DNA from: an uncultured Verrucomicrobiae bacterium
GTDB lineage: Bacteria > Verrucomicrobiota > Verrucomicrobiia > Limisphaerales > UBA11358
Direction: 5' to 3'
Length of the DNA stretch: 64,000 nucleotides
Assembly (NCBI GenBank): GCA_963789335.1
Contig: CAWBKH010000003.1
Location: forward strand, 233,757 to 297,756
A program made the translations under genes and the position numbers. Shown piece by piece: positions 33,429 through 47,915 of this stretch (its first letter is position 1; every line of letters starts with the position of its first letter). The notes under the pieces were generated by a model. That model was not told the DNA's origin and did not search any database. It worked only from the letters and a program-made list of their open reading frames with translations.

Positions 33429-33806
33429 ATGTGGAAGAAAATTCTACCGGTTTTGCCGGTGTTGTTGCTGACGGGATGTGCCACGACGTTTACCAATCTG
33501 ACGCCGCTGGAACAACCGCGCAACGCCAACAACCTTTACCCCGTCGAAGTCGCCTTTGCTTCGCAACAGCAATCAATGCGGTGGGACTCACTCCATCCTT
33601 ACGTGCTCGCCAACGGCCAGCTCTACGACATGCGCCCGACGCCGCTGATGACCAATCGCTGGGAAGGTTTTGTACCCGTGCCGCCCGGAGCCACTGACGT
33701 CACCTACCGTTATAAATTTGACTATCTTTACAACGATTTCAACAAGCCGCCCCAGCCCGGCAACGCCCTTTCGCCGGCGTATAAACTGACCATTCTCGGT
33801 CAGTAA
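33429..33806 (+). CDS. Small lipoprotein (hypothetical)
   Basis: The ATG at 33429 is in the frame of the mostly antisense long ORF 31968..33806. Signal peptide with lipobox LLLTGC. 125 aa. Confidence 0.55.
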   Translation: MWKKILPVLPVLLLTGCATTFTNLTPLEQPRNANNLYPVEVAFASQQQSMRWDSLHPYVLANGQLYDMRPTPLMTNRWEGFVPVPPGATDVTYRYKFDYLYNDFNKPPQPGNALSPAYKLTILGQ

Positions 33807-33812
33807 CGCCGC

Positions 33813-34262
33813 TCATTGCCTTGGCCGGAGAAGAATGGCCTTTTTTTCCGAGCCTTCGACTTCGACGCTGTGCGTTTCCACGTCGGGATCGTCCTTGAGT
33901 GCTTGGTGCACCACCCGGCGGTCAAAGGCCGTCATCGGTTCTAATTCCACCGTATCGCCCCAGCGCCGGACTTTGTCCGCGGCGTTCTTGGCTTTTTTCA
34001 CGAGGGCTTCGCGCGCCTGCGCACGATAGCCGCCCACGTCCACCATCACCTTGGGCGCGGTGGCATCCTGCTGAAAAAGCAGGCGGTTGGCGATGTATTG
34101 CAGGTCGGAAAGGGTCTGCCCTTGGCGGCCAATGAGCCGTCCGGCGTCATCGGTTTTTACCTCAAGTAAAAGACCTTCTTCCAACTTGTGTTCCTCGATG
34201 GTGGCGGAAAAACCGAGGGTTTCCAGAATTTTTCCCAGTGTTTCTTTTGGTTGAGCGGACAT
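33813..34262 (-). CDS. jag: Jag/KhpB-like RNA-binding protein (KH + R3H)
   Basis: R3H-type C-terminus (FDRRVVHQALKDDPDVETHS) and its position downstream of yidC. Confidence 0.85.
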   Translation of the reverse strand: MSAQPKETLGKILETLGFSATIEEHKLEEGLLLEVKTDDAGRLIGRQGQTLSDLQYIANRLLFQQDATAPKVMVDVGGYRAQAREALVKKAKNAADKVRRWGDTVELEPMTAFDRRVVHQALKDDPDVETHSVEVEGSEKKAILLRPRQ

Positions 34263-34271
34263 AAATTAGTG

Positions 34272-34360
34272 GTCGAGAGTCGAGAGTCGAAAGTCGAGGG
34301 CCAAGCGGCAGACGGCGAGAGCATTTTTCAGCCCTCGTCTCTCGGCGTTCGTCTCTCGAC
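34272..34360. repeat. Intergenic stutter-arm hairpin, GTCGAG(A/T)G family
   Basis: GTCGAGAGTCGAGAGTCGAAAGTCGAGGGC (34272-34301) versus GCCCTCGTCTCTCGGCGTTCGTCTCTCGAC (34331-34360), about 22 of 30 complementary. It lies between the yidC stop and the jag start. Confidence 0.75.
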
Positions 34361-34375
34361 TCTTTTGCATCGGCA

Positions 34376-36207
34376 TTATTTTTTCTTTTTCGGCGGCGGA
34401 GTCAATGCCGGAGCAGCACCGGAAGCAACCGGAGCCTGATTCATTTTCGTAAGCTTGGTCTGCGCAATTGTCAGAAGATTGTTGACCGTCCAGTAGAGCG
34501 TCAAGCCCGACGAATAGTTGTAAAGGAAAAGCAGGAAAATCAGCGGCAGATAGCGCATGATTTTCGCCTGGCTAGGGTCCATGCCCGGCGACGGCGGTTG
34601 CAGGTGCGATTGCCACAACATCGCGCCGCCCATCAACAACGGCAGCAAGTTAAACGGCAACCCCTCTGGCGTGCTGATGAACGGAATAAACGTCAGCCCC
34701 GGAATCATGAACAACGTGTCGGGTTTCGACAAATCCGCCACCCACAGGAAATGCGCCCCGCGCAGTTCAATCGCGCTGCGGATCATCGTGTAAAAGCCCA
34801 GGAACACCGGCATTTGAATCAACATCGGCAAACACCCGCTCATCGGGCTTACCTTGTGTTTGCGATACATTTCCCACTGTTTCTGTGTGAGTTTCTGCGG
34901 ATCGTCCTTGTATTTCGCCTGAAGCGCCTTTAATTCCGGCGCCAGCGCCTGCATCTTCTTCATCGAACGCGTGCTCTTGGCCATCAAAGGCCAGAACAGC
35001 ACCTTGAGGATGACCGTGAACAGCACGATGACCCAGCCGTAACCCAGCTTGGTCACATCATGCAGCCAGTTCATGCCCACTAACAGCGCCTTGGCAAAAA
35101 ATCCCCAGATGCCTCCGTAATTCATCACGAGGTCGGCGTGATTTTTGAACTTCTCCCCGATGCGGGCCAGCGTCCGGTATTCCTTTGGCCCCGCAAAGAG
35201 AACGATTTGCCGTTCAATTACCTGGTTGGTTCCGAGGGTTTGCGCCGGATAAACCAGGGCGGTTTGAATGCCTTCCGGTGACGGGCGCCCGGCTCCGGCT
35301 CGACATTGGGAAACGGCGGCAAATGAACCGGGCGCGCAATGACCTCTGCGGCTGGTTTTTCCGGCATCGCCAGCAGTGTGAAAAATTGATTGTGCGCCGC
35401 GGCCCAAACCACATTGCTCGTGCCCTCGCGATATTCGGTCTTGGGCGTACGGGGGAAGAAAATCAAAAACGTGGTGTTGGTGCTGAAATAGGACAAGCTG
35501 ATCTGCTCGTCCTTCGCGCCGTTGTACCACATCATGCCGACATTGTAGCCGTTGTCGTCCGGTCCCATCGGGGTCGCCGTGCCGACCACCCAGTCCTGCC
35601 TCGGCAATGCCAGCAATTTGTCGGACGTGTTGACCAGCCGCACGGTCACGTTCACCAGATAATCCGCGCCGATGTGAAATTCCTTCACGATGCGCAGACC
35701 GTCGGGAAGGGACTTTTCCGCGCGAACACCGTCGTCGGTTTTCGTCAAAGTGAAGTTGCCGTCGCCAATCAAACTCGCATCACCCAAAATCGCCAGCACC
35801 GGCACGGACGCGCGGGTGTTCAACGTGGCCACGCCATTGGTCGTCATCGCCGTCTTCCAGCGTAGCGAGACGGTTTCAGGGTAATCCAGCAGCTCGACCG
35901 ATTTCAATCCACCGCCGCGCGATGTGAATATGTAACGCGCGTGCATGTTGGTAAGCACAATCGTTTGTTCCGGCATGTTGGTGCCGACGGAAAATACGGG
36001 AGCGGCGGTGGAAGCGGTTGTTGCGGCTGTTGGCGCGGCGGAAACGGCGTTTGAAGCCGCGGTCGCAGTTTGGGTTGGTTCCGTGACCAACGTGTTTGTG
36101 CCCGTTGCCGGTTGGGTCATCTGCGAGGCGTACCTCTGCTCCGTGACGAACCATACACCCAGCAGAACGATGCAGAGAGTGACAACAATGATGCCGGTGC
36201 GGTCCAT
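34376..36207 (-). CDS. yidC: Membrane protein insertase YidC, reading frame interrupted by one apparent 1-nt deletion
   Basis: The N-terminal part is ORF 35218..36207 (TM segment plus periplasmic domain). The C-terminal insertase core is in ORF 34376..35530 (FWPLMAKSTRSMKKMQALAPELKALQAKYKDDPQK, MSGCLPMLIQMPVF). The frames must join within 35221-35530, most plausibly near 35278-35295 (...EPEPGA / RPSPEGIQTALVY...). Confidence 0.85.
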
Positions 36208-36213
36208 GAGTAA

Positions 36214-36492
36214 TTAAATTCCGAACTCCTTTTTCGGCGCCGGATCATGCCCGCAATCGCCCCACGGATGACAGCGGCAAATCCGTTTGACGGCCAGCCA
36301 GCCGCCAGCCAGCGCGCCCCGCGAACGAATGGCGTCCATCGCGTATTGCGAACAACTCGGCGTGAACCGGCAGCCGCCAGTCGGCCCGAACAGAAAAACG
36401 AGCGCGGGCGAAACCGTCCAGCGATACAGCCGTATGAGGAAGATCAAAACGGACTTGGGAACATTCAACAACCAACATTCAACATTGAACAT
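36214..36492 (-). CDS. yidD: Membrane protein insertion efficiency factor YidD
   Basis: LIRLYRWTVSP...CRFTPSCSQYAMDAI...RCHPW. The start is uncertain. The ATG at 36492 lies inside the hairpin repeat, and a TTG further downstream is also possible. Confidence 0.8.
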   Translation of the reverse strand: MFNVECWLLNVPKSVLIFLIRLYRWTVSPALVFLFGPTGGCRFTPSCSQYAMDAIRSRGALAGGWLAVKRICRCHPWGDCGHDPAPKKEFGI

Positions 36493-36547
36493 CCAATGAG
36501 AGCAGGAGCGTTCCCCCATTGGGAGTTGGGCGTTGAATGTTGAGTGT
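36459..36547. repeat. Intergenic stutter-arm hairpin, CAACATTCAAC family
   Basis: GAACATTCAACAACCAACATTCAACATTGAACATCCAATG (36459-36498) versus CATTGGGAGTTGGGCGTTGAATGTTGAGTGT (36517-36547). The apical stem CCAATG/CATTGG is perfect. It lies between rnpA and yidD. Confidence 0.75.
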
Positions 36548-36557
36548 AGAGAGTTTT

Positions 36558-36953
36558 TCATTTCAGCAGATTCGCGCGATTCAGTGCCGCCAGAAAATCC
36601 TTTTCGACCTCGGCGAATTTTTTCCCGACGATTGAATTCCGCGCGACGAGCACCAGTTCGATCGGCTGGGCAAACTCATTTTGGTGCTGCCGGAAACTTT
36701 CTCGCAACAACCGCCGTGCCCGGCTGCGCACCACCGCGCCGCCGATTTTTCGACTGGTAACGACGCCCAGTCGCGGCGCGCCACCGTCCGGCAATACATG
36801 CCAGTTGGCAATGAGACACCCCAGCGCGAGCCGCTGCCCCTCCTGGCGCACGCGCGCAAAATCGCGCTGCTGCTGGAGCCGCGTTGAGCGACGCAGGCGC
36901 AGGCGTCTGGCAGCCGGTGTCCGGCGTCCGGCGTCTGGAGACGGGGTGGGCAT
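36558..36953 (-). CDS. rnpA: Ribonuclease P protein component
   Basis: Basic 131-aa protein (RLRRSTRLQQQRDFARV..., VTSRKIGGAVVRSRARR) between rpmH and yidD. Confidence 0.85.
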   Translation of the reverse strand: MPTPSPDAGRRTPAARRLRLRRSTRLQQQRDFARVRQEGQRLALGCLIANWHVLPDGGAPRLGVVTSRKIGGAVVRSRARRLLRESFRQHQNEFAQPIELVLVARNSIVGKKFAEVEKDFLAALNRANLLK

Positions 36954-36965
36954 GAAACACGCGGA

Positions 36966-37103
36966 TTAAACGGGCGTCAGGCGTTTGCGTCCCACGCGGC
37001 GGCGGTTGCGCAGCGTGGCGCGACCACTCTTGGTGGATTTGCGGGCGAGAAATCCGTGCTGCCGTTTGCGCCGGATTTTTGATGGCTGATACTGGCGTTT
37101 CAT
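36966..37103 (-). CDS. rpmH: 50S ribosomal protein L34
   Basis: Hand translation gives [45 protein letters not shown] (45 aa). Too short for the ORF track. Confidence 0.93.
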
Positions 37104-39764: not shown

Positions 39765-40164
39765 TTGCGCCGACGGTCGTGAATCCGGAGAGCCATGCGG
39801 ATTTTTTACCACGGATGACACAGGTGGGCACGGATTCTTTGGCCACAAAAGCAGGGCGCGCCACTCCGTGCGCGCCGTCTTCAGCGATACAAAGCCAAAA
39901 CTTCAACCGCAGATGAACGCGGATGGACGCTGATTTTTTCAACGCCAGGACGTGAAGACGCAAAGACCGCAAAAAGACTAACCGCGAAACACGCTGAACA
40001 CTCGAAATTTATTTGCCGCACACGTCGCGCCGTAGCCTTGGCGAAGGCGGAAAACCCATTGCCGGAAACTGGCCTTCGGCGTAATCTCGCCGCGTCAGTC
40101 AAAAAAACTAAACGACCAGAAAACCAATTTAACCAAAATCATTTCGCGTAGCTTCGGCTGCTGT

Positions 40165-40291
40165 CCAACTCGAAACTAGCACTTTCATTCACAGGACGGC
40201 GTTCGAAGGCACGCCCACATCGGGCGTGCCTGAAAACGTTCCTGTGAAGGCATGCTAGTGCCTGAGTTGGGGCGTGAGTAGGTCACGCCCC
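40165..40291. repeat. Nested hairpin structures upstream of the Type ISP gene
   Basis: Outer pair CCAACTC (40165-40171)/GAGTTGG (40264-40270); inner pair TTCACAGGA/TCCTGTGAA; apical pair AGGCACGCCC/GGGCGTGCCT; then a second hairpin GGGGCGTGA (40269-40277)/TCACGCCCC (40283-40291). Confidence 0.55.
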
Positions 40292-40377
40292 TTCGCATTT
40301 TCAGGCACAGCATTTCTTCACCGGACAAGCCATCCCGACAGGGCTGATTCGCACGCGAGCGAATTCAGCTTGTCTGC

Positions 40378-43300
40378 ATGGGGACGCTTTCCATCTACGA
40401 TGTCCTTGCATATTTCCGCGAGGAGGCCACTTCCAACCGCGATCTCGGCGACCGCTTCGAGCGGCTTATTTGCCGTTACCTCGAACTGGACCCCATCTAC
40501 GCCGAGCGGTTCTCCAACGTCTGGATGTGGAATGAGTGGCCACGCAAAGGAAATGTCGGCGATGTAGGCATAGATATTGTGGCAGAGGAGCGTACCACCG
40601 GTGCGTTCTGCGCCATCCAGTGCAAGTTTTACCTGCCAGAGCACACCATCGCAAAAGAGGACATAGATTCTTTCTTCACGGCGTCAGGCAAAGAATTGTT
40701 CACGTCCGGCATGATTGTCTCGACCACCGACCGGTGGAGTAAAAACGCCGAGCACGCGCTGGCGAACCAATCCAAGCCCGTCACCCGGTTAACCGTCCAT
40801 GACCTCGACGCCAGCCCGATTGACTGGTCGAAATTCACGCTTCAGCGCCCGCAAGACCTCAGCCTTCGCCCGCAAAAGAAACCCCGCGATGATCAGAAAT
40901 CGGCCATTGCAGACGTGCTCAAAGGATTCGCCCAAGCCGACCGCGGCAAGCTCATCATGGCGTGCGGCACGGGCAAAACCTTCACCGCGCTGAAGATTGC
41001 CGAGAAAGTTGCGCCCACCGGCCACGTTCTGTTTCTTGTACCATCGCTTTCGTTGATGTCGCAAACCTTGCGCGAATGGACTGCTGAATCCGTCCGCCCC
41101 ATTCACAGCCTCGCCGTCTGTTCCGACACCACCATCGGCAAACGCACTGCCAAAACAGACGACGACAAGGCCGATATTACCATCTATGACCTTGCGTTTC
41201 CTGCAACAACTTCCGCCAGGCAGATTAACTGGCAGTATCGCGCCATCTGCACCATGGCAGAGAAAAAAAAGACGCCCGCGCAGATGACGGTCGTCTTTTC
41301 CACCTACCAATCCATTGAGGCAGTGTCGGAGGCGCAAAAGGCCGGCCTGCCGGAATTTGATCTCATTATCTGCGATGAAGCGCATCGCACCACCGGCGTC
41401 ACGTTGAGCGGCGAGGACGAAAGCCACTTCGTCAAAATCCACGACGCCGATTTCATCAAAGGTAAAAAACGACTCTACATGACCGCCACGCCGCGCATCT
41501 ACGGCGACGAGGCCAAGGTGAAGGCCAAGGACGCCGACGCCGAAATTTGCTCAATGGATAATCCCGCGCTCTTTGGCGAGGAATTCCATCGCCTCGGTTT
41601 CGGTGAAGCCGTCAGCAAATCGCTCCTGTCCGACTATAAGGTGCTCGTCCTCGCCGTGGATGAGAAATATGTCAACAAAACTTTCCAACGCCAGATTGCC
41701 GACAAGAACAATGAGATAGACCTCAACGATGCCGTCCGCATCACCGGCTGTTGGAACGGACTGGCCAAACGCTTCGATCACTCCACCGCCACAGCCGCTG
41801 ACTTGCAGGGCGACGTGGCGCACATGCGCCGTGCCGTGGCCTTTTCCCGTTCCATCAAAGACTCGAAAGCCTTCGTCGAAAAATTCGGCCAGATCGTTGC
41901 CGCCTACCGCGAGACGCATCCGGACGCGGAAAACCTGCTCACCTGCGAACTGGATCACGTGGACGGCACTTACGATGCCCTCAAGCGCAACGCCCGGCTC
42001 GACTGGCTCAAAGCCACCGCGCCGGAGAACACCTGCCGCATCCTTTCCAATGCGCGCTGCCTTTCCGAAGGCGTGGACGTTCCGGCGCTGGACGCCGTGC
42101 TGTTCCTCAATCCCCGCAAATCCCAGATTGATGTTGTCCAGTCGGTCGGTCGCCTGATGCGCCGGGCGGAAGGCAAGAAATACGGCTACATCATCCTGCC
42201 TGTCGGCATCCCGGCGGACGTGCCTGCTGAGGAAGCGCTGAAGGACAACGAGAAATACAAGGTCATCTGGCAAGTATTGCAGGCGCTCCGTGCTCATGAC
42301 GACCGCTTCAACGCTACCGTCAATCACATCGAACTCAACAAGCATCGCCCCGATGTAATCCAGGTCATCGGCATTGGTGGCGACGACCCGAAAGCACCGG
42401 GCGACGGAAAAAGCGACGGCGACGGTCAGATGACAGCACGCGAAGTGCAGGGCGCATTTGCCTTCCCGCATTTGGAGGAATGGAAGGACGCCATCTACGC
42501 CCGCATCGTTTTGAAGTGCGGCGACCGCCGCTACTGGGAAAGCTGGGCGAAGGACGTAGCCGTCATCGCCGAACGCCACGCCGACCGCATCCGGGCACTG
42601 CTGGAAAGTGGCGATGCGTGCCATAAACAAGCCTTCGCCGATTTCCTTACCGGCCTGCGCGACAACATCAATCCCAGCATCGGCGCGGACGATGCCATCG
42701 AGATGTTTTCCCAGCACCTCATCACGCGTCCGGTCTTCGACGCGCTGTTCGAGAACTACGCTTTCACGCAGCAAAATCCCATGTCCAAAGCCATGCAGCA
42801 GATGCTTGACACGCTGCACGACCAGGCGCTGGAGAAGGAAACCGCCGCGCTGGAGAAATTCTACGCCAGCGTCCGCCAGCGCGCCTCTGGCATAGACAAC
42901 GCGGAAGGCCGCCAGCGCGTCGTCATCGAGCTTTACGACAAATTCTTCCGCACCGCTTTTCCGAAGATGGCTGAACGCCTCGGCATCGTCTATACGCCGG
43001 TCGAGGTGGTAGATTTCATCGTTCACAGCGTGGAAGATGTCTTGCAGCATGAGTTCCGGTCATCACTTGGGGCGAAGGATGTCCATGTGATTGACCCGTT
43101 CACCGGCACTGGCACATTCATCGTGCGCCTGCTCCAGAGCGGCTTCATCCAGCCTGCTGACCTGCTGCGCAAATACCAGCACGAACTCCACGCCAACGAA
43201 ATCGTCCTGCTCGCCTACTACATCGCCGCCATCAACATCGAGGAAACCTTCCACGGCCTGCAACGCGCGAATGGTTCAGTGAGCTACAGATTGGGAACTT

Positions 43301-45477
43301 CTGGTATGGGGAGCGCGCCCGCCCCGGGCGCAGTTTCCCGCGCCCTCGCGGGAAACCCGGGGGCGTCCGAACCATCCACCGCTTCCGCCATGACCCCGCG
43401 CTCAGAGTTGCCGACGAGGGCGTCGGCAACAGCAGCCGGGGCGGCTGCGCTCCCCCAGACAAATTACATTCCATTCGAGGGCATCGTGCTGACGGACACG
43501 TTCCAGATGGCGGAAACCAAGGGTGAGATGGAGGAAAAGATGTTCCCGGAAAACAACCGCCGGGTGAAACGCCAGAAGCAAAGCCCCATCCGCGTCGTGA
43601 CTGGCAATCCACCTTACTCTGTAGGGCAGGCGAGTGAAAACGACCAGAACAAGAATCTTAAATACGACAACCTCGACGGTCGCATCCGCTCGACTTACGC
43701 AGAGCGTTCAGCGGCGAAGCTTAAGAAAAGCCTCTACAACAGCTATATCCGGGCTTTTCGCTGGGCCAGCGACCGCATTCAAGATAAAGGCATCGTAGCT
43801 TTCGTTTCGAACGGCAGATTCATCGACAACAATTCGATGGACGGACTTCGAGCCTGTGTTGTTAGTGAGTTCACTACCATCTATGTTTTTAATCTCCGAG
43901 GTGACGCTCACACTTCAGGCGAACAGAGGCGCATGGAGAAGGGCAATGTCTTTGGTGAAGGCACGAAAGATCCAATCGCGATTACTATCCTCGTCAAAAA
44001 TCCGCTGAAGACAGGAAAGTGCGAAATCTACTACCATGACATTGGTGACTATCTCGACCGCGCAGAAAAGCTCAACACAATCCGTGCGCTTCAAAGCATC
44101 AACGGCATACACCGCGATAAGAAATGGAAACGCCTCCAGCCAAACGCTAGCCATGATTGGATAAATCAACGCGACCCGACGTTCGGGAAGTTTGTTTTGT
44201 TTGGCGACAAGCAGGACGCCAGTGCAACCACGGTTTTTGAAGACTACTCTCAGGGCCTCCTAACCAGCCGTGACAAGTGGTGTTATCATTACGCCCGCTC
44301 TGCCGTTGCAGTCCATATGCATCGGATGATTCAATTCTATAACGAACAGGTTGATCGAGTTGCCAGAGTCGTCGCTGGAAAAAACAGGGCCGAGATCACT
44401 GAACTTGTGAACAAGGTCATCAACACAGACCCCAAGAAAATCTCTTGGTCAGGAAATTTAAAAGACGACGTAGCAAAACTAACAAAGCACGAATTTTGCG
44501 AAGACCGCATATTGATTGGTGTCTATCGGCCGTTTGCGAAGCAAGCAGTTTATATGGATCGCGATTTCAACGAGCGCGTTTACCAGATACCGCGAATTTT
44601 CCCGAAGGCGGGAGTGCCGAATCAGGTCATAGTCGTTTCTGGTATTGGCGCTGCGAAGGACTTCTCCGCACTCATTACCGATTGTGTTCCGAACTTCCAC
44701 ATGCACGACACTGGCCAGTGCTTTCCCTTTTACCTCTACGAAAAGGACGAGCCAACCGAGTCAAAAGCAGGCGAAGAAACGAAGCTTCGTGAAGTGGATT
44801 TAATCGCCAAAGAGCCGGAAGGCGAGTTGGTAGAAGGCTGCCAGCGGCGCAGCGCCATCACGGATGCCATCCTCGCCGATTTTCGCGCGGCCTACGAAGC
44901 ACGGGTCACGAAGGAGGACATCTTTTACTACGTCTATGGCGTGCTGCATTCGCCGGAGTATCGCACCCGTTTCGCCAGCGACCTGAAGAAGATGCTGCCG
45001 CGCCTGCCCTTCACGCGGGAGACGGCGGACTTCTGGCGCTTCAGCCAGGCGGGCCGCGACCTCGCCCAGTGGCATTTGAATTACGAGACCATCGAGCCGT
45101 GGCCGGTGAAGGAATTCGCCAGCGAACTCCTGAGCGACCCGGCAACGGATTTCCTCGTGCAAAAGATGACCTTTGGCCGGAAGGACCGGCAGGTGGACAA
45201 AACGACCATCCATTACAACGCGCGCATCACACTCACCGGCATCCCGCTCGAAGCCTACGATTACGTTGTGAACGGCAAGCCCGCGCTCGAATGGATCATG
45301 GAGCGTTACCAGATCACTGTGGACAAGGACAGCGGCATCCGCAACGACCCGAACGATTGGGCGCGGGAGCACAACCAACCCCGCTACATCCTCGACCTCC
45401 TCAAACGCATCATCCGCGTGAGCCTAGAAACGATGAAGATTGTGAATGCATTGCCGCCGTTGAACGAGCGGAAATGA
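40378..45477 (+). CDS. Type ISP-like restriction-modification enzyme (Mrr-like nuclease, SF2 ATPase, N6-adenine methyltransferase, target-recognition region)
   Basis: 1699 aa. The N-terminal PD-(D/E)xK-like block is GIDIVAEE...AIQCKF. Walker A is ACGTGKTF and DEAH is ICDEAHRT. MTase motif I is DPFTGTGTF and motif IV is GNPPYS. This is the LlaGI/LlaBIII-type domain order as I remember it. Confidence 0.8.
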   Translation: MGTLSIYDVLAYFREEATSNRDLGDRFERLICRYLELDPIYAERFSNVWMWNEWPRKGNVGDVGIDIVAEERTTGAFCAIQCKFYLPEHTIAKEDIDSFFTASGKELFTSGMIVSTTDRWSKNAEHALANQSKPVTRLTVHDLDASPIDWSKFTLQRPQDLSLRPQKKPRDDQKSAIADVLKGFAQADRGKLIMACGTGKTFTALKIAEKVAPTGHVLFLVPSLSLMSQTLREWTAESVRPIHSLAVCSDTTIGKRTAKTDDDKADITIYDLAFPATTSARQINWQYRAICTMAEKKKTPAQMTVVFSTYQSIEAVSEAQKAGLPEFDLIICDEAHRTTGVTLSGEDESHFVKIHDADFIKGKKRLYMTATPRIYGDEAKVKAKDADAEICSMDNPALFGEEFHRLGFGEAVSKSLLSDYKVLVLAVDEKYVNKTFQRQIADKNNEIDLNDAVRITGCWNGLAKRFDHSTATAADLQGDVAHMRRAVAFSRSIKDSKAFVEKFGQIVAAYRETHPDAENLLTCELDHVDGTYDALKRNARLDWLKATAPENTCRILSNARCLSEGVDVPALDAVLFLNPRKSQIDVVQSVGRLMRRAEGKKYGYIILPVGIPADVPAEEALKDNEKYKVIWQVLQALRAHDDRFNATVNHIELNKHRPDVIQVIGIGGDDPKAPGDGKSDGDGQMTAREVQGAFAFPHLEEWKDAIYARIVLKCGDRRYWESWAKDVAVIAERHADRIRALLESGDACHKQAFADFLTGLRDNINPSIGADDAIEMFSQHLITRPVFDALFENYAFTQQNPMSKAMQQMLDTLHDQALEKETAALEKFYASVRQRASGIDNAEGRQRVVIELYDKFFRTAFPKMAERLGIVYTPVEVVDFIVHSVEDVLQHEFRSSLGAKDVHVIDPFTGTGTFIVRLLQSGFIQPADLLRKYQHELHANEIVLLAYYIAAINIEETFHGLQRANGSVSYRLGTSGMGSAPAPGAVSRALAGNPGASEPSTASAMTPRSELPTRASATAAGAAALPQTNYIPFEGIVLTDTFQMAETKGEMEEKMFPENNRRVKRQKQSPIRVVTGNPPYSVGQASENDQNKNLKYDNLDGRIRSTYAERSAAKLKKSLYNSYIRAFRWASDRIQDKGIVAFVSNGRFIDNNSMDGLRACVVSEFTTIYVFNLRGDAHTSGEQRRMEKGNVFGEGTKDPIAITILVKNPLKTGKCEIYYHDIGDYLDRAEKLNTIRALQSINGIHRDKKWKRLQPNASHDWINQRDPTFGKFVLFGDKQDASATTVFEDYSQGLLTSRDKWCYHYARSAVAVHMHRMIQFYNEQVDRVARVVAGKNRAEITELVNKVINTDPKKISWSGNLKDDVAKLTKHEFCEDRILIGVYRPFAKQAVYMDRDFNERVYQIPRIFPKAGVPNQVIVVSGIGAAKDFSALITDCVPNFHMHDTGQCFPFYLYEKDEPTESKAGEETKLREVDLIAKEPEGELVEGCQRRSAITDAILADFRAAYEARVTKEDIFYYVYGVLHSPEYRTRFASDLKKMLPRLPFTRETADFWRFSQAGRDLAQWHLNYETIEPWPVKEFASELLSDPATDFLVQKMTFGRKDRQVDKTTIHYNARITLTGIPLEAYDYVVNGKPALEWIMERYQITVDKDSGIRNDPNDWAREHNQPRYILDLLKRIIRVSLETMKIVNALPPLNERK
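43308..43455. repeat. About 148-bp TIR-bounded GC-rich palindromic element inside the Type ISP ORF
   Basis: The ends are GGGGAGCGCGCCCGCCCCGG and CCGGGGCGGCTGCGCTCCCC, with 19 of 20 positions complementary. Internal hairpins are GTTTCCCGCG-CCCT-CGCGGGAAAC and GTTGCCGAC-GAGGGC-GTCGGCAAC. It is translated as a low-complexity stretch (GSAPAPGAVSRALAGNPGASEPSTASAMTPRSELPTRASATAAGAAALP). Confidence 0.75.
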
Positions 45478-45543
45478 ACGGTAGGGCTGTTGCAACCGAT
45501 AAATTTCGCGTGTTCCGCGTGGTTCGCGGTTTCCGATTGAATG

Positions 45544-45642
45544 GAGACAGGCTGGAAGCATCCACCTTCGCCAGCTTCGGCGCGACAAGCTGTACTACGG
45601 CATTGTCCGTCCGAGCATCTGCTGGCTGAGGGCCGCGACGGC
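45544..45642. repeat. Direct repeat copy 1 (orphan duplicate of the 3' end of gene 46809..47915)
   Basis: Matches 46787-46856 except for one mismatch and a 29-bp insertion (45561-45589). On the minus strand it encodes ...AVAALSQQMLGRTMP* with no gene upstream of it. Confidence 0.85.
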
Positions 45643-45716
45643 AGCGAGGAGGATTGAATGGAACTACACCGCAAATTCGGGCTGACACGCCTGCCGAGTT
45701 GGGTTAATTTACTGTC

Positions 45717-45959
45717 ATGAGCAAAGCCGACATTCTGGCAGAGTTGCCCAAGCTGACACCGGCGGAATTGGCTGAAATTCAATCTCGAATTGAAGACCTC
45801 GCCACCTACGGTTCGGACGGCTGGCGGACGGACAGCGACCTTACAGAAGCGGAGAAACGGTTGATTGAGGCGCGATTGGACGACTTGGATCAGCATCCCG
45901 AAAAATCAATCCCTTGGCCGGAAGCGGAAGCGCGCCTCAAGGCCCGCTTTGGCAAGTGA
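45717..45959 (+). CDS. Addiction-module antitoxin component (TIGR02574-like)
   Basis: 80 aa. MSKADILAELPKLTPAELAEIQSRIEDL is the pattern I associate with the putative addiction module component family paired with RelE/ParE toxins. Confidence 0.7.
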   Translation: MSKADILAELPKLTPAELAEIQSRIEDLATYGSDGWRTDSDLTEAEKRLIEARLDDLDQHPEKSIPWPEAEARLKARFGK

Positions 45960-46258
45960 CCTACCAACTGGGCATTCACCCGGACGCACTCGCCGACATT
46001 GAGTCCGCCGGGGAGTGGTATGAGGAACGGCAACCGGGCTTGGGGGCTGATTTCTCGCGCACCGTCCGGCAAGCCATCAACACGCTGCCCGCCAATCCCC
46101 TGATTTATTGCCTGCGTGAGCGGCACCGGCAGGTTCGCTGGTTCTTCCCACCGCGGTTTCCCTATCGCATCGTGTATCGGGTGAAACGGGATTTGATTAC
46201 CATCGTTGCCGTCATCCACGCGGCCCGCCATGACCGACATTGGCGTGAACGGTTATGA
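45956..46258 (+). CDS. RelE/ParE-family toxin
   Basis: The GTG at 45956 overlaps the antitoxin stop (GTGA). 100 aa. The start MTYQLGIHPDALADIESAGEWY and the end ...YRIVYRVKRDLITIVAVIHAARH are typical ParE/RelE features. Confidence 0.75.
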   Translation: MTYQLGIHPDALADIESAGEWYEERQPGLGADFSRTVRQAINTLPANPLIYCLRERHRQVRWFFPPRFPYRIVYRVKRDLITIVAVIHAARHDRHWRERL

Positions 46259-46788
46259 CACCCGTCGAACTTGTCAGCCTCGCGCCCAACGACGCCCGCT
46301 ATCCGTCGCGTTTGCGCGAGTGATTGGACGAACAAGCGCCGCCGCAACTTTGGGCGCTCGGCAACTTGTCCCTGCTGCAAGAGCGCAAGACCGCGCTCTT
46401 CTGCTCCGCCCGCTGCCCCGGCGACGCCATCCTCCGCGCCTGCGACAAGGCCCGCCGGTGGCGCGACGAGCATCGCTGCATCATCAGCGCCTTCCACTCC
46501 GTGGTTGAAAAGGAATGTCTGCGCAGCTTGCGGCGTGGGACACAGCCCATCATCATCCGCCCCGCCCGCAGCCTGGAAAACTTCCGCCTGCCATCGGACT
46601 GGAAAGAACCGCTGGCCCGAAATCGTTTGTTGCTTCTGTCCTGTTTCACCGCCAAGCAGAACCGCGTCACGACCGAACTTGCTGCCCGCCGCAACGAACT
46701 CGTTGCTGCTCTCGCAGACGAAATCTGGTTCGCCCACATCACCCCCGGCGGTCAGATGGAACGATTGGCAAAGAAGTTTTCCATTTGA
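46255..46788 (+). CDS. Short DprA/Smf-like (Rossmann/SLOG) protein with an in-frame TGA at codon 23
   Basis: The ATG at 46255 overlaps the toxin stop (ATGA). The translation MTPVELVSLAPNDARYPSRLRE is followed by TGA (46321-46323), then LDEQAPPQLWALGNLSLLQERKTALFCSARCPG... This resembles the YP..L...PP.L...G....AIVGSR core of DprA. The ORF track starts it at TTG 46324. Confidence 0.55.
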
Positions 46789-46856
46789 GACAGGCTGGAA
46801 GCACTGTCCTACGGCATTGTCCGTCCGAGCATCTGCTGGCTGAGGGCCGCGACGGC
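46787..46856. repeat. Direct repeat copy 2 (overlaps the true 3' end of gene 46809..47915)
   Basis: See copy 1. It starts within the DprA-like stop codon and covers the last 16 codons plus stop of the minus-strand gene. Confidence 0.85.
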
Positions 46857-47915
46857 TTCGTCGAGCGCGGGCAACGAAGACGCGGGCCAGAGTTGAATTT
46901 GCAGTTCGTCGCAGAGCGGTTGCAGCACGGGTTGGAGACGTGAACCGCCGATGATAATTTTTTCCGGCAGTTGGCCGGCCAGGAGCAGCGCATCCACCAG
47001 TCCGCGACCGGCGGCTTCGCCGGGGGTGAGCGCGCCGCTTTGCACGCCCATGCCAACCACGAGGCCGCGCTGTTGTTCCACCAGCAAGCTGATTCGGCCA
47101 AAGCAGGGCCTTCCGTTTTCGAGGAATGAACCGCCGGGCAGCAGGCTGCAATCAAATTCACACGCCGTGCCCGGCGCGCGTTTGAGGGCGCGGAGTTTTT
47201 CGCGCTGGCCGGCGGGAGTTTGAAAAGGGTCAAAGCCGGTGGGCGGTGACGGCAGGAGCGGACGCCAGTCGAGGTCCCGCGGCGTGAGCGGGCGATCCGG
47301 CAGAATGACGGGAACAAAAGGAATCTCCGCAGGCGCGCAGCCGTCGAAAATTTGGGGATGTTCCTCGAACAGTTTGTAGAAGGCGGTGAGACGCGGCAGA
47401 TCGGCGAGGAGCTGGCTGGCTTCGGTCTGGTTGATGTGCCAGGGAAGCCAGCCGGGTTCGGCGGAGCGGAATTGCGGCCAGACACTGCCTTTGCCGGCGG
47501 GTTTGAAGGCGGCGGCTTTAAGCGCGGCCAGGTCTTCCTTCCACAACTCGCGCTTGGGAACTAACTCGACTTTCAGGCAATCCATGCCGTCGGCGCTGTT
47601 GAAGTCCTCCGGGTCAGGTGTGTCACTGAGCATCTGGAGCATCCAGCGCAAGCCGGCTGGACGACGATAAAATACGGCGGCGAAAATGCTTCCGGCCGCA
47701 CCGAGCACGCAGCCAATGCGAGTCTCGCCGGTGATGGGATCAATCAGACCAACGACATCACTGTCATAGGCAAATTCCCACGGTTTGACGGCGGCGAACG
47801 CGGCGGCGGCGTCAAGCAAGGCGTGCCAGGTTTCAGACGCAACGGGCGGAGGCGGAGCGAGTTTGGGCACGGTGATAAATTGAATTCGTGTTAATTCGTG
47901 TAATTCGTGTCTCAA
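46809..47915 (-). CDS. Hypothetical protein (368 aa)
   Basis: Long ORF with coding-like composition and no motif I recognise. The start is uncertain (TTG 47915 or GTG 47870), because the first 15 codons are encoded by a CGAATT-type repeat arm. Confidence 0.6.
   Translation of the reverse strand: MRHELHELTRIQFITVPKLAPPPPVASETWHALLDAAAAFAAVKPWEFAYDSDVVGLIDPITGETRIGCVLGAAGSIFAAVFYRRPAGLRWMLQMLSDTPDPEDFNSADGMDCLKVELVPKRELWKEDLAALKAAAFKPAGKGSVWPQFRSAEPGWLPWHINQTEASQLLADLPRLTAFYKLFEEHPQIFDGCAPAEIPFVPVILPDRPLTPRDLDWRPLLPSPPTGFDPFQTPAGQREKLRALKRAPGTACEFDCSLLPGGSFLENGRPCFGRISLLVEQQRGLVVGMGVQSGALTPGEAAGRGLVDALLLAGQLPEKIIIGGSRLQPVLQPLCDELQIQLWPASSLPALDEAVAALSQQMLGRTMP

What the first reader, a model, noticed from the sequence alone, without database searches (positions are those of the whole stretch)
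45544..46856. Three-gene cassette (antitoxin / ParE-RelE-like toxin / short DprA-like protein) bracketed by att-like direct repeats
Seen:
- A 99-bp repeat (45544-45642) and a 70-bp repeat (46787-46856) are identical apart from one mismatch and a 29-bp indel.
- The right copy contains the last 16 codons and the stop of the minus-strand 368-aa gene (...AVAALSQQMLGRTMP*).
- The left copy is an orphan duplicate of that same gene end.
- Exactly three plus-strand genes lie between the copies. They are chained by overlapping stop/start codons: GTGA at 45956-45959 and ATGA at 46255-46258.

Inference: a small module inserted site-specifically at the 3' end of the 368-aa gene, regenerating that end. This is the classic attL/attR signature, but no integrase is present in the window. 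A type II TA pair translationally coupled to a truncated DprA/Smf-like Rossmann (SLOG-type) protein is not an arrangement I know as a described system. It could be a tripartite TA or defence module, or a mobilisable cargo unit.
Basis: partly seen in the sequence, partly recalled or inferred. Interest (0 to 1): 0.7.

Follow-up and report, generated by a model that had tools for sequence, protein, structure and literature searches.

The report
Decayed restriction-operon remnant with recombination scar
The "cassette" is what is left of a restriction-modification-type defence operon whose big enzyme genes were lost, leaving a toxin-antitoxin pair and a broken DprA-like gene, and its flanking repeats are a scar of sloppy recombination rather than the footprint of a site-specific integrase.

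Summary
The repeats and the three chained ORFs are real, but two points need correcting.

**1. The third gene is broken.** It carries an in-frame TGA (46321-46323) in place of a family-conserved Arg, plus four more changes at conserved sites.

**2. The repeats are not att sites.**
- The left copy plus the 66 nt to its left is the native 3' flank of the 368-aa gene, as relatives show.
- Its junction with the cassette is a perfect 12-nt identity (GGCCGCGACGGC) between that gene and the last codons of an Eco57I/Type IIG-class methyltransferase.
- Only 'GRDGSEED*' of that methyltransferase survives in the window.
- The first ~30 nt of the right copy are a hairpin that follows DprA-like genes in other genomes.

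**What the short DprA-like family is.** It has over 1,500 homologs across many phyla and is the conserved last gene of operons reading HKD-nuclease/Snf2 helicase -> Type IIG-class MTase -> (variable inserted genes) -> DprA-like. MTase or its tail lies upstream in 47 of 61 assessable loci.

**Where the TA pair fits.** It is one of many genes found inserted in that gap. L104 keeps the intact order MTase-antitoxin-ParE-DprA.

**Verdict.** This is a decayed operon remnant joined to the 368-aa gene by microhomology-mediated recombination, inside a hotspot where R-M systems turn over. The DprA-like/R-M association and a covarying ~250-nt leader RNA upstream of the neighbouring Type ISP gene appear undescribed.

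The parts
39980..40012 (.). Left arm of a 33-nt inverted repeat bracketing the 5' RNA + Type ISP block. It is the inverted copy of motif X.
   Evidence: 91% complementary with 45499-45531; the motif occurs only twice in the window
40131..40377 (+). Conserved structured leader (candidate cis-regulatory RNA) directly upstream of the Type ISP start codon
   Evidence: homologs upstream of the first R-M gene in 11 other loci; 56 pairs, 18 with compensatory change, 0/500 shuffles reach that; no Rfam match; covariance-model hits
40378..45477 (+). Type ISP restriction-modification enzyme (Mrr nuclease, SF2 helicase, N6-MTase, coupler, ISP C-terminal specificity domain), 1699 aa
   Evidence: Pfam; PADLOC REase_MTase_IIG, 2254 bits
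45478..45543 (.). 'X': native 3' flank of the 368-aa gene. It contains the right arm (45499-45531) of the inverted repeat.
   Evidence: contiguous with the gene end in L094 and L095; partly in L087
45544..45642 (-). Left repeat copy: the native long-variant hairpin (including the 29 nt at 45561-45589), the stop codon and the last 16 codons of the 368-aa gene, now orphaned
   Evidence: the native status of the 29-nt variant is shown by L089, L090, L091 and L095
45631..45657 (+). Remnant of the Type IIG/Eco57I-class methyltransferase C-terminus (G R D G S E E D stop). Its first 12 nt (GGCCGCGACGGC, 45631-45642) are the microhomology shared with the 368-aa gene and form the junction.
   Evidence: tail consensus HYGFTxEELDFI[IL]NYDIKYRLGRD..EE* in 23 MTases; L104 intact tail; window 45631-45767 is 97.8% identical to L104
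45717..45959 (+). Antitoxin (PF09720 / TIGR02574-like), 80 aa
   Evidence: the exact protein and 9 relatives at >=90% identity occur on other contigs; homologs in L104, L018 and L007
45956..46258 (+). ParE/RelE-family toxin, 100 aa, GTG start overlapping the antitoxin stop
   Evidence: PF05016, 6.9e-13; homologs in L104, L018 and L007
46255..46788 (+). Short DprA-like (SLOG/Rossmann) gene, disrupted. There is a nonsense TGA at 46321-46323 (Arg23 to stop), plus G79A, I91S, L93R and C102R at conserved positions. The longest remaining ORF is 46324-46788 (154 aa, TTG start).
   Evidence: fold; PADLOC PsyrA 2e-14
46787..46856 (-). Right repeat copy: the short-variant hairpin (46787-46808, native to the DprA module's 3' end) fused to the functional stop and last 16 codons of the 368-aa gene
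   Evidence: the same hairpin follows the DprA stop in L103, L105 and L106
46809..47915 (-). 368-aa core gene (DUF7309 + DUF6930), overlapping purB by 4 nt. Its 3' end is the recombination target.

Best explanation
Window 45631-46788 is the surviving 3' part of a defence operon of the type HKD(PLD)-nuclease/Snf2 helicase -> Eco57I/Type IIG-class methyltransferase -> antitoxin -> ParE -> short DprA-like protein.

**Shown**
- The helicase gene and nearly all of the methyltransferase gene are gone. Only the last 8 MTase codons remain.
- The ParE-type TA pair looks intact.
- The DprA-like gene has a nonsense codon at position 23 and excess substitutions at conserved sites.

**Inferred: how it got here**
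- The remnant was joined to the chromosome by illegitimate, microhomology-mediated recombination.
- The most economical version is homology-facilitated illegitimate recombination. Incoming DNA from a related strain carried MTase-TA-DprA-hairpin next to its own 368-aa gene.
- That DNA paired homologously in the 368-aa gene (or purB) on one side.
- On the other side it joined at a perfect 12-nt identity (GGCCGCGACGGC) between the MTase tail and the recipient's 368-aa gene, 16 codons from its end.
- The recipient's original gene end, long hairpin and flank X were left behind as the left copy. The donor's short hairpin and gene end now complete the gene as the right copy.

**Inferred: function**
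- In intact operons the short DprA-like protein is probably an accessory or regulatory subunit. It would bind ssDNA and/or RecA, or restrain the helicase-nuclease, by analogy with ShosA, PsyrA/RqlI and H. pylori DprA.
- In this window it is probably inactive.
- The TA pair likely persists because it is addictive, which would also explain why deletions stop just upstream of it.
For: **The DprA-like family and its operon**
- More than 1,500 homologs of ~175 aa.
- In L001, L003, L012, L014 and L056 the gene overlaps the stop of a ~1,100-aa MTase, which follows a ~1,150-aa PLD+SNF2 protein.
- PADLOC and Pfam call these 'HKD+Snf2' and REase_MTase_IIG (1051 bits) / Eco57I.
- Of 61 species-level loci with at least 1.5 kb upstream, 47 have the MTase or its tail on the same strand. 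Thirteen keep only a tail remnant.

**The tail remnant**
- Consensus ...HYGFTxEELDFI[IL]NYDIKYRLGRD..EE*.
- L018 retains ~35 codons upstream of antitoxin-ParE-DprA.
- L104 has the intact MTase end, then antitoxin, ParE and an intact DprA-like gene, and is 97.8% identical to window 45631-45767.

**The junction**
- L104 reads CTC-GGCCGCGACGGC-GGCGAGGAGGATTGA.
- The 368-aa gene reads GAG-GGCCGCGACGGC-TTCGTC.

**Native status of the left copy and X**.

**The short hairpin belongs to the DprA module**.

**A second, independent junction of the same kind**: in L105 a 368-aa-gene 3' fragment abuts another MTase tail.

**Hotspot context**
- L087 is an empty site.
- L092, L095 and L099 carry other cargo at the same place.

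**Decay of the window's DprA-like copy**; the stop is confirmed by L102.

**Functional analogies**
- Fold match to DprA and ShosA.
- ShosA binds ssDNA and RecA (PMC12961424).
- RqlI/PsyrA binds and restrains a helicase (PMC4670107).
- H. pylori DprA inhibits restriction enzymes and stimulates MTases (PMC3597690).
Against: - No donor genome was recovered with MTase-ParE-type TA-DprA-short hairpin directly abutting a full-length 368-aa gene. L105 has the right junction but only a ~97-nt gene fragment and different inserted genes. L104's downstream flank differs.
- L018 also places a decayed copy of the same Type ISP gene just upstream of the MTase tail. A single HFIR event in the window's lineage does not explain this. 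It hints that ISP and MTase-TA-DprA blocks were already neighbours in some ancestor.
- The 48-nt coding part of the two copies is 100% identical. This requires a very close donor or later gene conversion.
- The function of the DprA-like protein rests only on gene-neighbourhood association and structural analogy.
- TA toxicity is untested.
- Re-initiation at TTG 46324 could still give a partly functional 154-aa protein.
Confidence: 0.68

Rival explanations
1. Whole-island insertion followed by internal deletion. A complete island (5' RNA - HKD/Snf2 helicase - MTase - TA - DprA - hairpin - a copy of the 368-aa gene's 3' end) first recombined into the 3' end of the 368-aa gene through the ~100-200-nt gene-end homology it carried, duplicating that end. 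Later a deletion between the two 12-nt direct repeats (in the orphan gene end and in the MTase tail) removed the RNA, the helicase and most of the MTase.
For: - L105 shows a DprA module that carries a ~97-nt fragment of the 368-aa gene at its DprA-proximal end, detached from a full gene.
- Tail-only remnants are common (13 loci), so R-M loss by deletion is frequent.
- The 12-mer is a perfect direct repeat in the required orientation.
- Some islands lie next to a large serine recombinase and a ParB-like gene (L012, L014-L017).
Against: - It needs two events where one suffices.
- No locus was found with the full island flanked by both gene-end copies.
- No recombinase is present in the window.
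- Serine integrases do not create long duplications.
Confidence: 0.22
2. A small mobilisable TA+DprA cassette integrated site-specifically, with attL/attR equal to the two repeats, using an integrase encoded elsewhere.
For: - There are long, nearly identical direct repeats, and the gene's 3' end is regenerated.
- The short-read contig L102 starts and ends inside the repeats, which is compatible with, but not evidence for, a circle.
- The hairpin element recurs at insertion boundaries in relatives.
Against: - One repeat end coincides with a chance 12-nt identity inside the coding tail of a deleted MTase gene. In L104 and L018 that tail continues upstream as MTase sequence, not as att sequence.
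- The other repeat end is the DprA module's own 3' hairpin.
- No integrase or tRNA lies nearby.
- The same trio in L104, L018 and L007 is not flanked by this repeat.
Confidence: 0.06
3. A functional tripartite module. The DprA-like protein is a third component of the ParE toxin-antitoxin system (for example a second antitoxin, chaperone or sensor), translationally coupled for that reason.
For: - Overlapping stop/start codons occur in the window and in L104.
- The trio recurs in L104 and L018.
- DprA-like proteins act as antitoxins in ShosTA and PsyrTA.
Against: - Most family members have no ParE-type TA upstream. Seven of 46 loci with a detectable MTase tail have it within 120 nt of the DprA-like start, five of them overlapping or abutting.
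- Elsewhere the gap holds YhcG/DUF1016, Bro-N, DUF3644, ORF6N, DUF3800, HepT/MNT or DUF4926/DUF2283 genes.
- The antitoxins of the window and L104 are only 48% identical, while the DprA-like proteins are 77% identical.
- The window's DprA-like copy is broken while the TA pair is intact.
Confidence: 0.04

Closest known systems
ParDE/RelE-superfamily type II toxin-antitoxin pairs (PF05016 toxin with PF09720/TIGR02574 'addiction module' antitoxin)
   Same: - The antitoxin is upstream and overlaps the toxin start.
- Both proteins are small (80 and 100 aa).
- Both Pfam matches are above gathering score.
   Different: Nothing unusual in the pair itself. Its position, embedded between an R-M methyltransferase gene and a DprA-like gene, is the only notable aspect.
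ShosA (ShosTA) and PsyrA/RqlI (PsyrTA/RqlHI): DprA-like antitoxin components of defence systems
   Same: - DprA Rossmann-like core. Foldseek to ShosA 8zva gives TM 0.81, E 1e-10. The PADLOC PsyrA model scores 2e-14 to 6e-20.
- The gene is encoded downstream of a large, potentially self-damaging enzyme.
- RqlI binds and restrains a helicase (PMC4670107). ShosA binds ssDNA and RecA (PMC12961424).
   Different: - Only ~175 aa. There is no SAM domain, no C-terminal helix or HTH, and no MoCo-like extension.
- The partners are an HKD-nuclease/Snf2 helicase and a Type IIG-class MTase, not a PRTase (ShosT) or a RecQ-PRTase (PsyrT/RqlH).
- The PsyrA profile is matched only over positions ~96-249 of 398.
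Canonical DprA/Smf (natural transformation, RecA loader)
   Same: - Same fold: 3uqz, 4ljk and 3maj at E ~1e-10, TM 0.75-0.77.
- H. pylori DprA interacts functionally with R-M enzymes (PMC3597690).
   Different: - ~20% identity.
- The window copy is below the Pfam gathering score (22.2 against 29.6) and far below TIGR00732 (17 against 191 bits).
- It lacks the flanking SAM and winged-helix domains.
- It sits in defence operons that move between phyla, not in a competence locus.
ATP-dependent R-M-like systems with an HKD-nuclease/Snf2 helicase plus N6-MTase (Type I/III-like HKD systems; Type ISP; 'Type-2 BREX-related'/Hma systems)
   Same: - The partner genes of the family are an HKD+Snf2 protein and an Eco57I/IIG-class MTase.
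- The window's neighbour is a Type ISP enzyme.
- HKD-helicase effectors paired with an N6-MTase are described in PMC12839542.
   Different: - No DUF499 or DUF3780 component was seen.
- A DprA-like third gene is not mentioned in that survey (0 occurrences of DprA, SLOG or Smf) or in the other papers retrieved.
Homology-facilitated illegitimate recombination (HFIR) in natural transformation
   Same: - One side lies in long homology (368-aa gene/purB).
- The other side joins at a short GC-rich microhomology (12 nt).
- The result inserts foreign DNA next to the anchor.
   Different: This is inferred from sequence scars only. The concept is taken from my own knowledge of the HFIR literature, and the search returned only papers that mention it. 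Competence of this organism is unknown.

Membership tests
Type II TA, ParE/RelE toxin with PF09720-type antitoxin | Toxin matches the ParE_toxin profile above the curated cut-off | tested here: met
   PF05016, 49.4 bits against 23, residues 7-91 of 100
Type II TA, ParE/RelE toxin with PF09720-type antitoxin | Small antitoxin gene immediately upstream, co-directional and overlapping or adjacent | tested here: met
   45717-45959 overlaps the GTG at 45956; PF09720 25.1 bits against 23.3; TIGR02574 26.2 bits, below its 31.9 cut-off
Type II TA, ParE/RelE toxin with PF09720-type antitoxin | Toxin is toxic and is neutralised by the antitoxin | not testable with these tools
   needs expression assays
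Canonical DprA/Smf | Matches the DprA family models at curated thresholds | tested here: not met
   PF02481 22.2 bits, below 29.6; TIGR00732 17.3 against 191 bits. Most full-length homologs do carry a precomputed PF02481 hit.
Canonical DprA/Smf | Rossmann-like DprA core fold | tested here: met
   model pLDDT 92.5; 3uqz E 7e-11, TM 0.76
Canonical DprA/Smf | Multi-domain architecture (N-terminal SAM and/or C-terminal winged helix), ~280-380 aa | tested here: not met
   the family is ~173-180 aa and aligns only to the core of 282-353-aa targets
PsyrTA/RqlHI or ShosTA (DprA-like antitoxin systems) | Adjacent cognate toxin (RecQ-like helicase with PRTase, or ShosT PRTase) | tested here: not met
   the neighbours are ParE, a Type IIG MTase, an HKD-Snf2 helicase or Type ISP; no PRTase or RecQ
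PsyrTA/RqlHI or ShosTA (DprA-like antitoxin systems) | DprA-like domain similar to PsyrA/ShosA | tested here: met
   PsyrA 2e-14 and 5.7e-20, partial profile; ShosA TM 0.81
Integrase-mediated integrative element (attL/attR) | Recombinase gene in or next to the element | tested here: not met
   none between 33.8 and 50 kb. Serine recombinases occur only in some distant loci.
Integrase-mediated integrative element (attL/attR) | Direct repeats at both ends that regenerate the target gene's 3' end | tested here: met
Integrase-mediated integrative element (attL/attR) | Repeat ends correspond to the element's own ends (the same ends wherever the element occurs) | tested here: not met
   in L104 and L018 the sequence left of the 12-mer is MTase coding sequence; the hairpin belongs to the DprA 3' flank in other contexts.
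Integrase-mediated integrative element (attL/attR) | Empty-site allele in relatives | tested here: inconclusive
   L087 is empty for the whole 6.9-kb region (ISP + TA + DprA). No allele was found that lacks only the 1.2-kb cassette.
HKD-Snf2 helicase / Type IIG-class MTase / short DprA-like operon (family defined here) | MTase with the conserved ...HYGFTxEELDFI[IL]NYDIKYRLGRD tail upstream and co-directional with the DprA-like gene | tested here: met
   The window keeps only GRDGSEED* (45634-45657; the shared 12-mer starts at 45631). It is 97.8% identical at nucleotide level to the L104 tail, spacer and antitoxin start.
HKD-Snf2 helicase / Type IIG-class MTase / short DprA-like operon (family defined here) | Intact helicase-nuclease and MTase genes | tested here: not met
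   both are absent from the window. The upstream enzyme is an unrelated Type ISP, separated from the cassette by native flank.
HKD-Snf2 helicase / Type IIG-class MTase / short DprA-like operon (family defined here) | Intact ~175-aa DprA-like ORF | tested here: not met
   stop at codon 23 and 4 further deviations at conserved columns

The most novel reading that the evidence does not exclude
The short DprA-like protein is a previously unrecognised, widely transferred accessory component of ATP-dependent R-M-like systems (HKD-nuclease/Snf2 helicase + Type IIG-class MTase). It would act as an antitoxin-like restraint, or as an ssDNA/RecA-loading repair factor that limits self-damage by the helicase-nuclease. 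Together with the nucleotide-conserved MTase tail and, in Verrucomicrobiota, a structured ~250-nt leader RNA, it forms conserved 'bookends'. Between these, R-M cargo (HKD-Snf2/IIG, Type III, Type ISP) and small inserted cassettes (TA pairs and others) are swapped by recombination. The window would then be a snapshot of that turnover.
Probability: 0.3. Interest if true: 0.75.

Novelty: new variant of a known kind. Interest (0 to 1): 0.5.

Why it matters
**For the window itself:** the result is deflationary. The 'att-bracketed tripartite cassette' is a decayed operon remnant plus a recombination scar.

**From the comparative work, three leads:**
1. A large, cross-phylum family of ~175-aa DprA-core proteins is tied to helicase/methyltransferase restriction systems. 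I found no description of this association. It parallels the DprA-like antitoxins ShosA and PsyrA, and the known DprA/R-M interplay in H. pylori. It therefore gives a testable route to how such nucleases are kept from harming the host.
2. A strongly covarying leader RNA precedes diverse R-M genes and has no Rfam match. It is a candidate new regulator of R-M expression.
3. The locus documents, at base-pair resolution, how defence cargo is exchanged and lost at a chromosomal hotspot. The traces are microhomology joins in MTase tails, hairpin elements at the boundaries, and a TA pair marking the deletion limit.

Tried and rejected
- **Greedy six-frame ORF picking** for neighbourhood clustering failed in this high-GC DNA, because antisense ORFs displaced real genes. 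I replaced it with same-strand ORFs anchored on the DprA match.
- **Look-up of P0001**, the 99%-identical annotated 140-aa product, found no contig. The source organism was therefore not named; the nearest relatives are Verrucomicrobiota MAGs.
- **Rfam** at E<=1 over 39800-47000 found nothing.
- **Sigma-70 promoter and intrinsic-terminator scans** of 45400-46950 found nothing. This is uninformative for Verrucomicrobiota.
- **Integrase, tRNA and composition checks** gave no integrase, only a distant tRNA-Asp, and no sharp GC shift at the cassette.
- **A remnant DprA 3' end just left of the left copy** (the basis for a tandem duplication + deletion model) was rejected. That stretch is native flank X.
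- **The 11-mer GATTGAATGGA on both sides of the left copy as a target-site duplication** was rejected. The right-hand copy is the MTase stop region, conserved in L018 and L104.
- **Selenocysteine or programmed read-through of the TGA** was rejected. The conserved residue is Arg, and a single CGA->TGA change explains it.
- **Integron cassette or attC:** nothing supports this. There is no intI, only two repeat copies, and one repeat end lies inside coding sequence.
- **Literature searches** for a described DprA-like/R-M operon found none.
Full report
**1. Checking the observation**

The two repeat copies exist where stated. The left copy is 45544-45642 and the right copy is 46787-46856. They align as 17 identical nt, a 29-nt segment present only on the left (45561-45589), then 53 nt with one mismatch. 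The 48-nt core and the 17-mer each occur exactly twice in the 64-kb window, with none expected by chance.

The right copy contains the stop and last 16 codons of the minus-strand 368-aa gene (46809-47915; Pfam DUF7309 + DUF6930). That gene overlaps purB by 4 nt.

Three plus-strand ORFs lie between the copies, with GTGA and ATGA overlaps:
- ORF1 (45717-45959) is a PF09720-type antitoxin.
- ORF2 (45956-46258) is a ParE-family toxin.
- ORF3 is not intact. Reading from the ATG at 46255 meets an in-frame TGA at 46321-46323.

In every aligned homolog the TGA position is the Arg of a conserved 'RLRERLG' motif. An independent short-read assembly (L102) is 100% identical across the cassette, including the stop. 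The window's copy also deviates at one family-invariant position (G79A) and at three more near-invariant ones (I91S, L93R, C102R). Homologs average about one such deviation.

**2. What the third protein is**

The 154-aa remnant retrieves more than 1,500 relatives, nearly all 172-200 aa long and 65-88% identical. An AlphaFold model of the intact 88%-identical homolog is confident (pLDDT 92.5, pTM 0.90). The first 24 residues, which are lost here, form a strand and a helix of the fold.

Foldseek places the model with:
- the DprA core: S. pneumoniae 3uqz (E 7e-11), H. pylori 4ljk, and 3maj;
- ShosA 8zva, which gives the highest TM-score, 0.81;
- LOG, MoCo-carrier and ThsA-SLOG proteins, but only weakly.

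So the DprA/SLOG call is right. However, the protein is a bare core domain. It falls below the Pfam and TIGRFAM DprA thresholds, and its best defence-library match is a partial hit to PsyrA.

**3. Where the family lives**

The contexts of homologs overturn the idea of a TA-centred module.

*The core operon.* In L001, L003 and L004 the DprA-like gene overlaps the stop of a ~1,100-aa Eco57I-type methyltransferase, which in turn follows a ~1,130-aa PLD-nuclease/helicase. A scan of one genome per species returned 79 loci. They come from Verrucomicrobiota, Nitrospirota, Planctomycetota, Deltaproteobacteria, Binatia, Hydrogenedentota and others. The two large partners are:
- an HKD (PLD/NgoFVII-like) nuclease fused to a Snf2 helicase (PADLOC 'HKD+Snf2');
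- a protein that matches a Type IIG REase-MTase model end to end at 1051 bits.

*How often the MTase is there.* The MTases end in a very conserved tail...HYGFTxEELDFI[IL]NYDIKYRLGRD..EE*. That tail, or the MTase, lies upstream on the same strand in:
- 47 of 61 loci with at least 1.5 kb of upstream sequence;
- 30 of 37 loci with at least 8 kb.

In 13 loci only a short tail remnant is left.

*What fills the gap.* The tail is within 120 nt of the DprA-like start in 7 loci (5 of them overlapping or abutting) and is separated from it by 0.4-3 kb in 37. The gap holds an assortment of genes commonly found embedded in R-M operons (that characterisation is from my own knowledge). Identified so far are YhcG/DUF1016 nuclease, Bro-N, DUF3644, ORF6N, DUF3800, HepT/MNT, DUF4926/DUF2283, and ParE-type TA pairs.

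*Cargo replacement.* In L007 and L032 a Type III R-M system sits upstream of an MTase-tail remnant plus the DprA-like gene. L030 has a mosaic ISP/IIG enzyme. So the R-M cargo is replaced while the tail and the DprA-like gene persist.

**4. The window's cassette is such a remnant**

*L018.* It carries a decayed copy of the window's own Type ISP gene, then about 35 codons of MTase tail, then antitoxin-ParE-DprA. Homology with the window stops at the ISP stop codon and resumes at 45631.

*L104.* It preserves the intact state:
- an MTase ending ...ARHYGFTAEELDFIINYDIKYRLGRDGGEED*;
- an antitoxin (78 aa), ParE (99 aa) and an intact 176-aa DprA-like gene, with the same overlapping stops and starts.

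*The junction.* Window 45631-45767 is 97.8% identical to L104. In the window the MTase frame reads only G-R-D-G-S-E-E-D-stop (45634-45657). The L104 DNA at this point is ...CTC GGCCGCGACGGC GGCGAGGAGGATTGA. The 368-aa gene strand reads ...GAG GGCCGCGACGGC TTCGTC. The right-hand end of the repeat is therefore a perfect 12-nt identity between an MTase tail and the 368-aa gene. This is a microhomology junction, not an att core.

*Mosaicism.* Beyond the conserved first 17 residues, the antitoxins of the window and L104 are only 48% identical. The TA cassette is therefore itself mosaic.

**5. Which repeat copy is which**

Sixteen metagenomic relatives carry the 368-aa gene at 66-82% identity. They share the synteny g247-rhomboid-purB-368aa-...-GNAT-MFS.

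- **Empty site.** L087 has the gene followed about 430 nt later by GNAT. It has no ISP, no TA, no DprA-like gene and no leader RNA.
- **Left copy is native.** In L089, L090, L091 and L095 the sequence after the stop aligns continuously with the window's left copy, including the 29 nt. L094 carries a different hairpin after the stop. The adjoining flank X (45478-45543) is matched by L094, by L095 (downstream of its second hairpin copy) and in part by L087. So the left copy plus X is the native end of the gene.
- **Right copy is partly DprA-module sequence.** The short hairpin that begins the right copy (GAGACAGGCTGGAAGCACTGTCCTACG...) directly follows the DprA-like stop codon in the unrelated contigs L103, L105 and L106, and in a long variant in L104.
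- **Relatives carry duplicated hairpins.** L091 and L095 carry two copies of this hairpin 130-170 nt apart with no gene between them. These are duplicated hairpins only, not a duplicated gene end.
- **A second junction of the same kind.** In L105 a complete 5' RNA-helicase-MTase-DUF3800-200aa-DprA operon ends in the short hairpin plus only about 97 nt of the 368-aa gene. That fragment then abuts the tail of a different MTase-type ORF (...VYAFYGLTPEEIKIVEAVSK*).

**6. Mechanism of the duplication (inferred)**

The simplest path is homology-facilitated illegitimate recombination.
- Donor DNA of the form ...MTase-TA-DprA-short hairpin-368aa gene... pairs with the recipient in the 368-aa gene or purB.
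- Its other end joins the recipient at the 12-nt identity, 16 codons from the gene's end.
- The product is exactly what is seen: ISP-X-long hairpin-48 nt | MTase tail-TA-DprA-short hairpin-48 nt-gene body.

This accounts for the 29-nt indel and the mismatch as allelic differences between donor and recipient.

A two-step alternative cannot be excluded. In it a whole island recombines in through a gene-end fragment it carries, as L105 suggests, and is then deleted between the two 12-mers.

An integrase/att model is disfavoured for three reasons. One junction lies inside a decayed coding tail. The other 'repeat end' is the DprA module's own hairpin. No recombinase is present.

One thing remains unexplained: why L018 also has an ISP remnant just upstream of the MTase tail. 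ISP and HKD-Snf2 blocks may have been neighbours before both lineages lost the helicase and MTase genes.

**7. Function (inferred)**

The family's tight, co-directional and often overlapping linkage to a helicase-nuclease/MTase pair suggests an accessory role. So does its higher conservation: 62-73% identity, against about 45-50% for the helicase in the same loci.

Precedents for DprA-like proteins in this kind of role:
- ShosA is a DprA-like type IV antitoxin that needs dimerisation, ssDNA binding and RecA binding (PMC12961424; PMC11961720).
- RqlI/PsyrA contains a DprA-homology region. It binds and restrains the toxic helicase RqlH/PsyrT and is encoded downstream of it (PMC4670107).
- H. pylori DprA inhibits restriction enzymes and stimulates methyltransferases (PMC3597690).

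I therefore propose that the short DprA-like protein limits or repairs self-damage by the R-M helicase-nuclease. I hold this with low-to-moderate confidence. In the window it is most likely inactive. The TA pair is intact and probably persists because it is addictive, which would also explain why deletions stop just upstream of its conserved leader.

**8. Novelty and verdict**

The TA pair is ordinary. The repeat is a recombination scar. The DprA-like gene here is a pseudogene, or at best truncated.

What seems new is the family-level association of a bare DprA core protein with HKD-Snf2/Type IIG R-M-like operons. I found no description of it. The structured leader RNA next door also seems new.

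I classify the finding as a new variant of a known kind, a decayed member of an R-M operon type with an undescribed accessory gene, and rate it of moderate interest.

Noticed in passing
window 40131-40377 (+); homologs include L012 2856-3095, L007 1345-1600, L105 1227-1493, L095 5070-5315 (-): A ~250-nt conserved, highly structured leader lies directly upstream of the first R-M gene, whatever the R-M type (Type ISP, HKD-Snf2, Type III mod, IIG).
- Invariant core: AUUUCGCGUAGCUUCGGCUGCUGUCC.
- Six helices and 56 pairs. 18 pairs show compensatory change, against 10.8+-1.9 in shuffles (0/500 reach the observed value) and 2-8 in slid controls.
- A GC hairpin followed by a U-run sits in the middle.
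- The 5' core can pair either locally (UUCG hairpin) or with the sequence just before the start codon.
- There is no Rfam match.
- A covariance model finds it in 11 DprA-like loci, all Verrucomicrobiota, and in 3 hotspot relatives. It finds none in other phyla.
   Followed up: partly
window 39980-40012 and 45499-45531: A 33-nt inverted repeat, 91% complementary, brackets the leader RNA + Type ISP block. The right arm lies in the native flank X. The motif occurs only at these two places in the window. It could be transposon-like terminal repeats, or an insertion into the centre of a palindromic REP-like element.
   Followed up: partly
window 46787-46815; L103 978, L106 1541, L105 7489, L104 2133, L092 5913, L091 7500 and 7625, L095 1502 and 1633: A hairpin element family, GAGACAGGCKGGAMGC[0 or ~29-35 nt]CTGTCCTRCGKCAT(CAGCGGTTAAAAA).
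- It sits immediately after DprA-like stop codons.
- It also sits at the end of the 368-aa gene, where it supplies the gene's last two codons and stop.
- It occurs in tandem in some relatives.
- It looks like a REP/terminator-like element that marks island boundaries.
   Followed up: partly
L090 1457-1564 vs 2607-2709; L098 1395-1468 vs 2097-2170; L099 6091-6186 vs 6760-6855: In relatives, insertions of 0.5-2 kb lie between purB and the 368-aa gene, which overlap in the window. In these three loci the insertions come with orphan duplicates of the purB 3' end. The inserts include a 183-aa/DUF6036-nucleotidyltransferase pair, an ORF6N protein with a membrane protein, and a lipoprotein. This is the same kind of gene-end duplication as in the finding.
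   Followed up: partly
L008 1235-3320; L010 571-2190: Tandem recombination scars lie downstream of an intact DprA-like gene. The order is MTase-tail remnant, MNT-HepT pair, a second MTase-tail remnant, then a 57-72-nt remnant of a DprA-like 3' end.
   Followed up: partly
L012, L014, L015, L016, L017: 1.2-3.4 kb downstream of the DprA-like gene: A large serine recombinase (Resolvase + Recombinase domains) and a ParB/RepB-like gene follow the operon in five Verrucomicrobiota loci. In those genomes the operon may ride on an integrative element.
   Followed up: partly
window 43308-43455, inside the Type ISP ORF (about aa 965-1030): A GC-rich imperfect palindrome (49-nt arms, 78% complementary) lies in frame between the N6-MTase and Eco57I-like regions. 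It encodes a low-complexity Ala/Ser/Pro/Gly stretch. Profile matches to the enzyme split into two stretches around it. It may be an inserted repeat element tolerated within the ORF.
   Followed up: no
window 33800-37000: The cluster jag - yidC - yidD - rnpA lies about 4-7 kb upstream of the island (read from the ORF translations; not profile-searched). The defence hotspot therefore sits in a core, possibly origin-proximal region.
   Followed up: no
L099 9737-10489 (-): In this hotspot relative a weak, probably decayed copy of the leader RNA (30.6 bits) is followed by an 86-aa ORF and a ParE-family toxin (36% identical to the window's). The 368-aa gene there is truncated at about residue 177.
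   Followed up: partly
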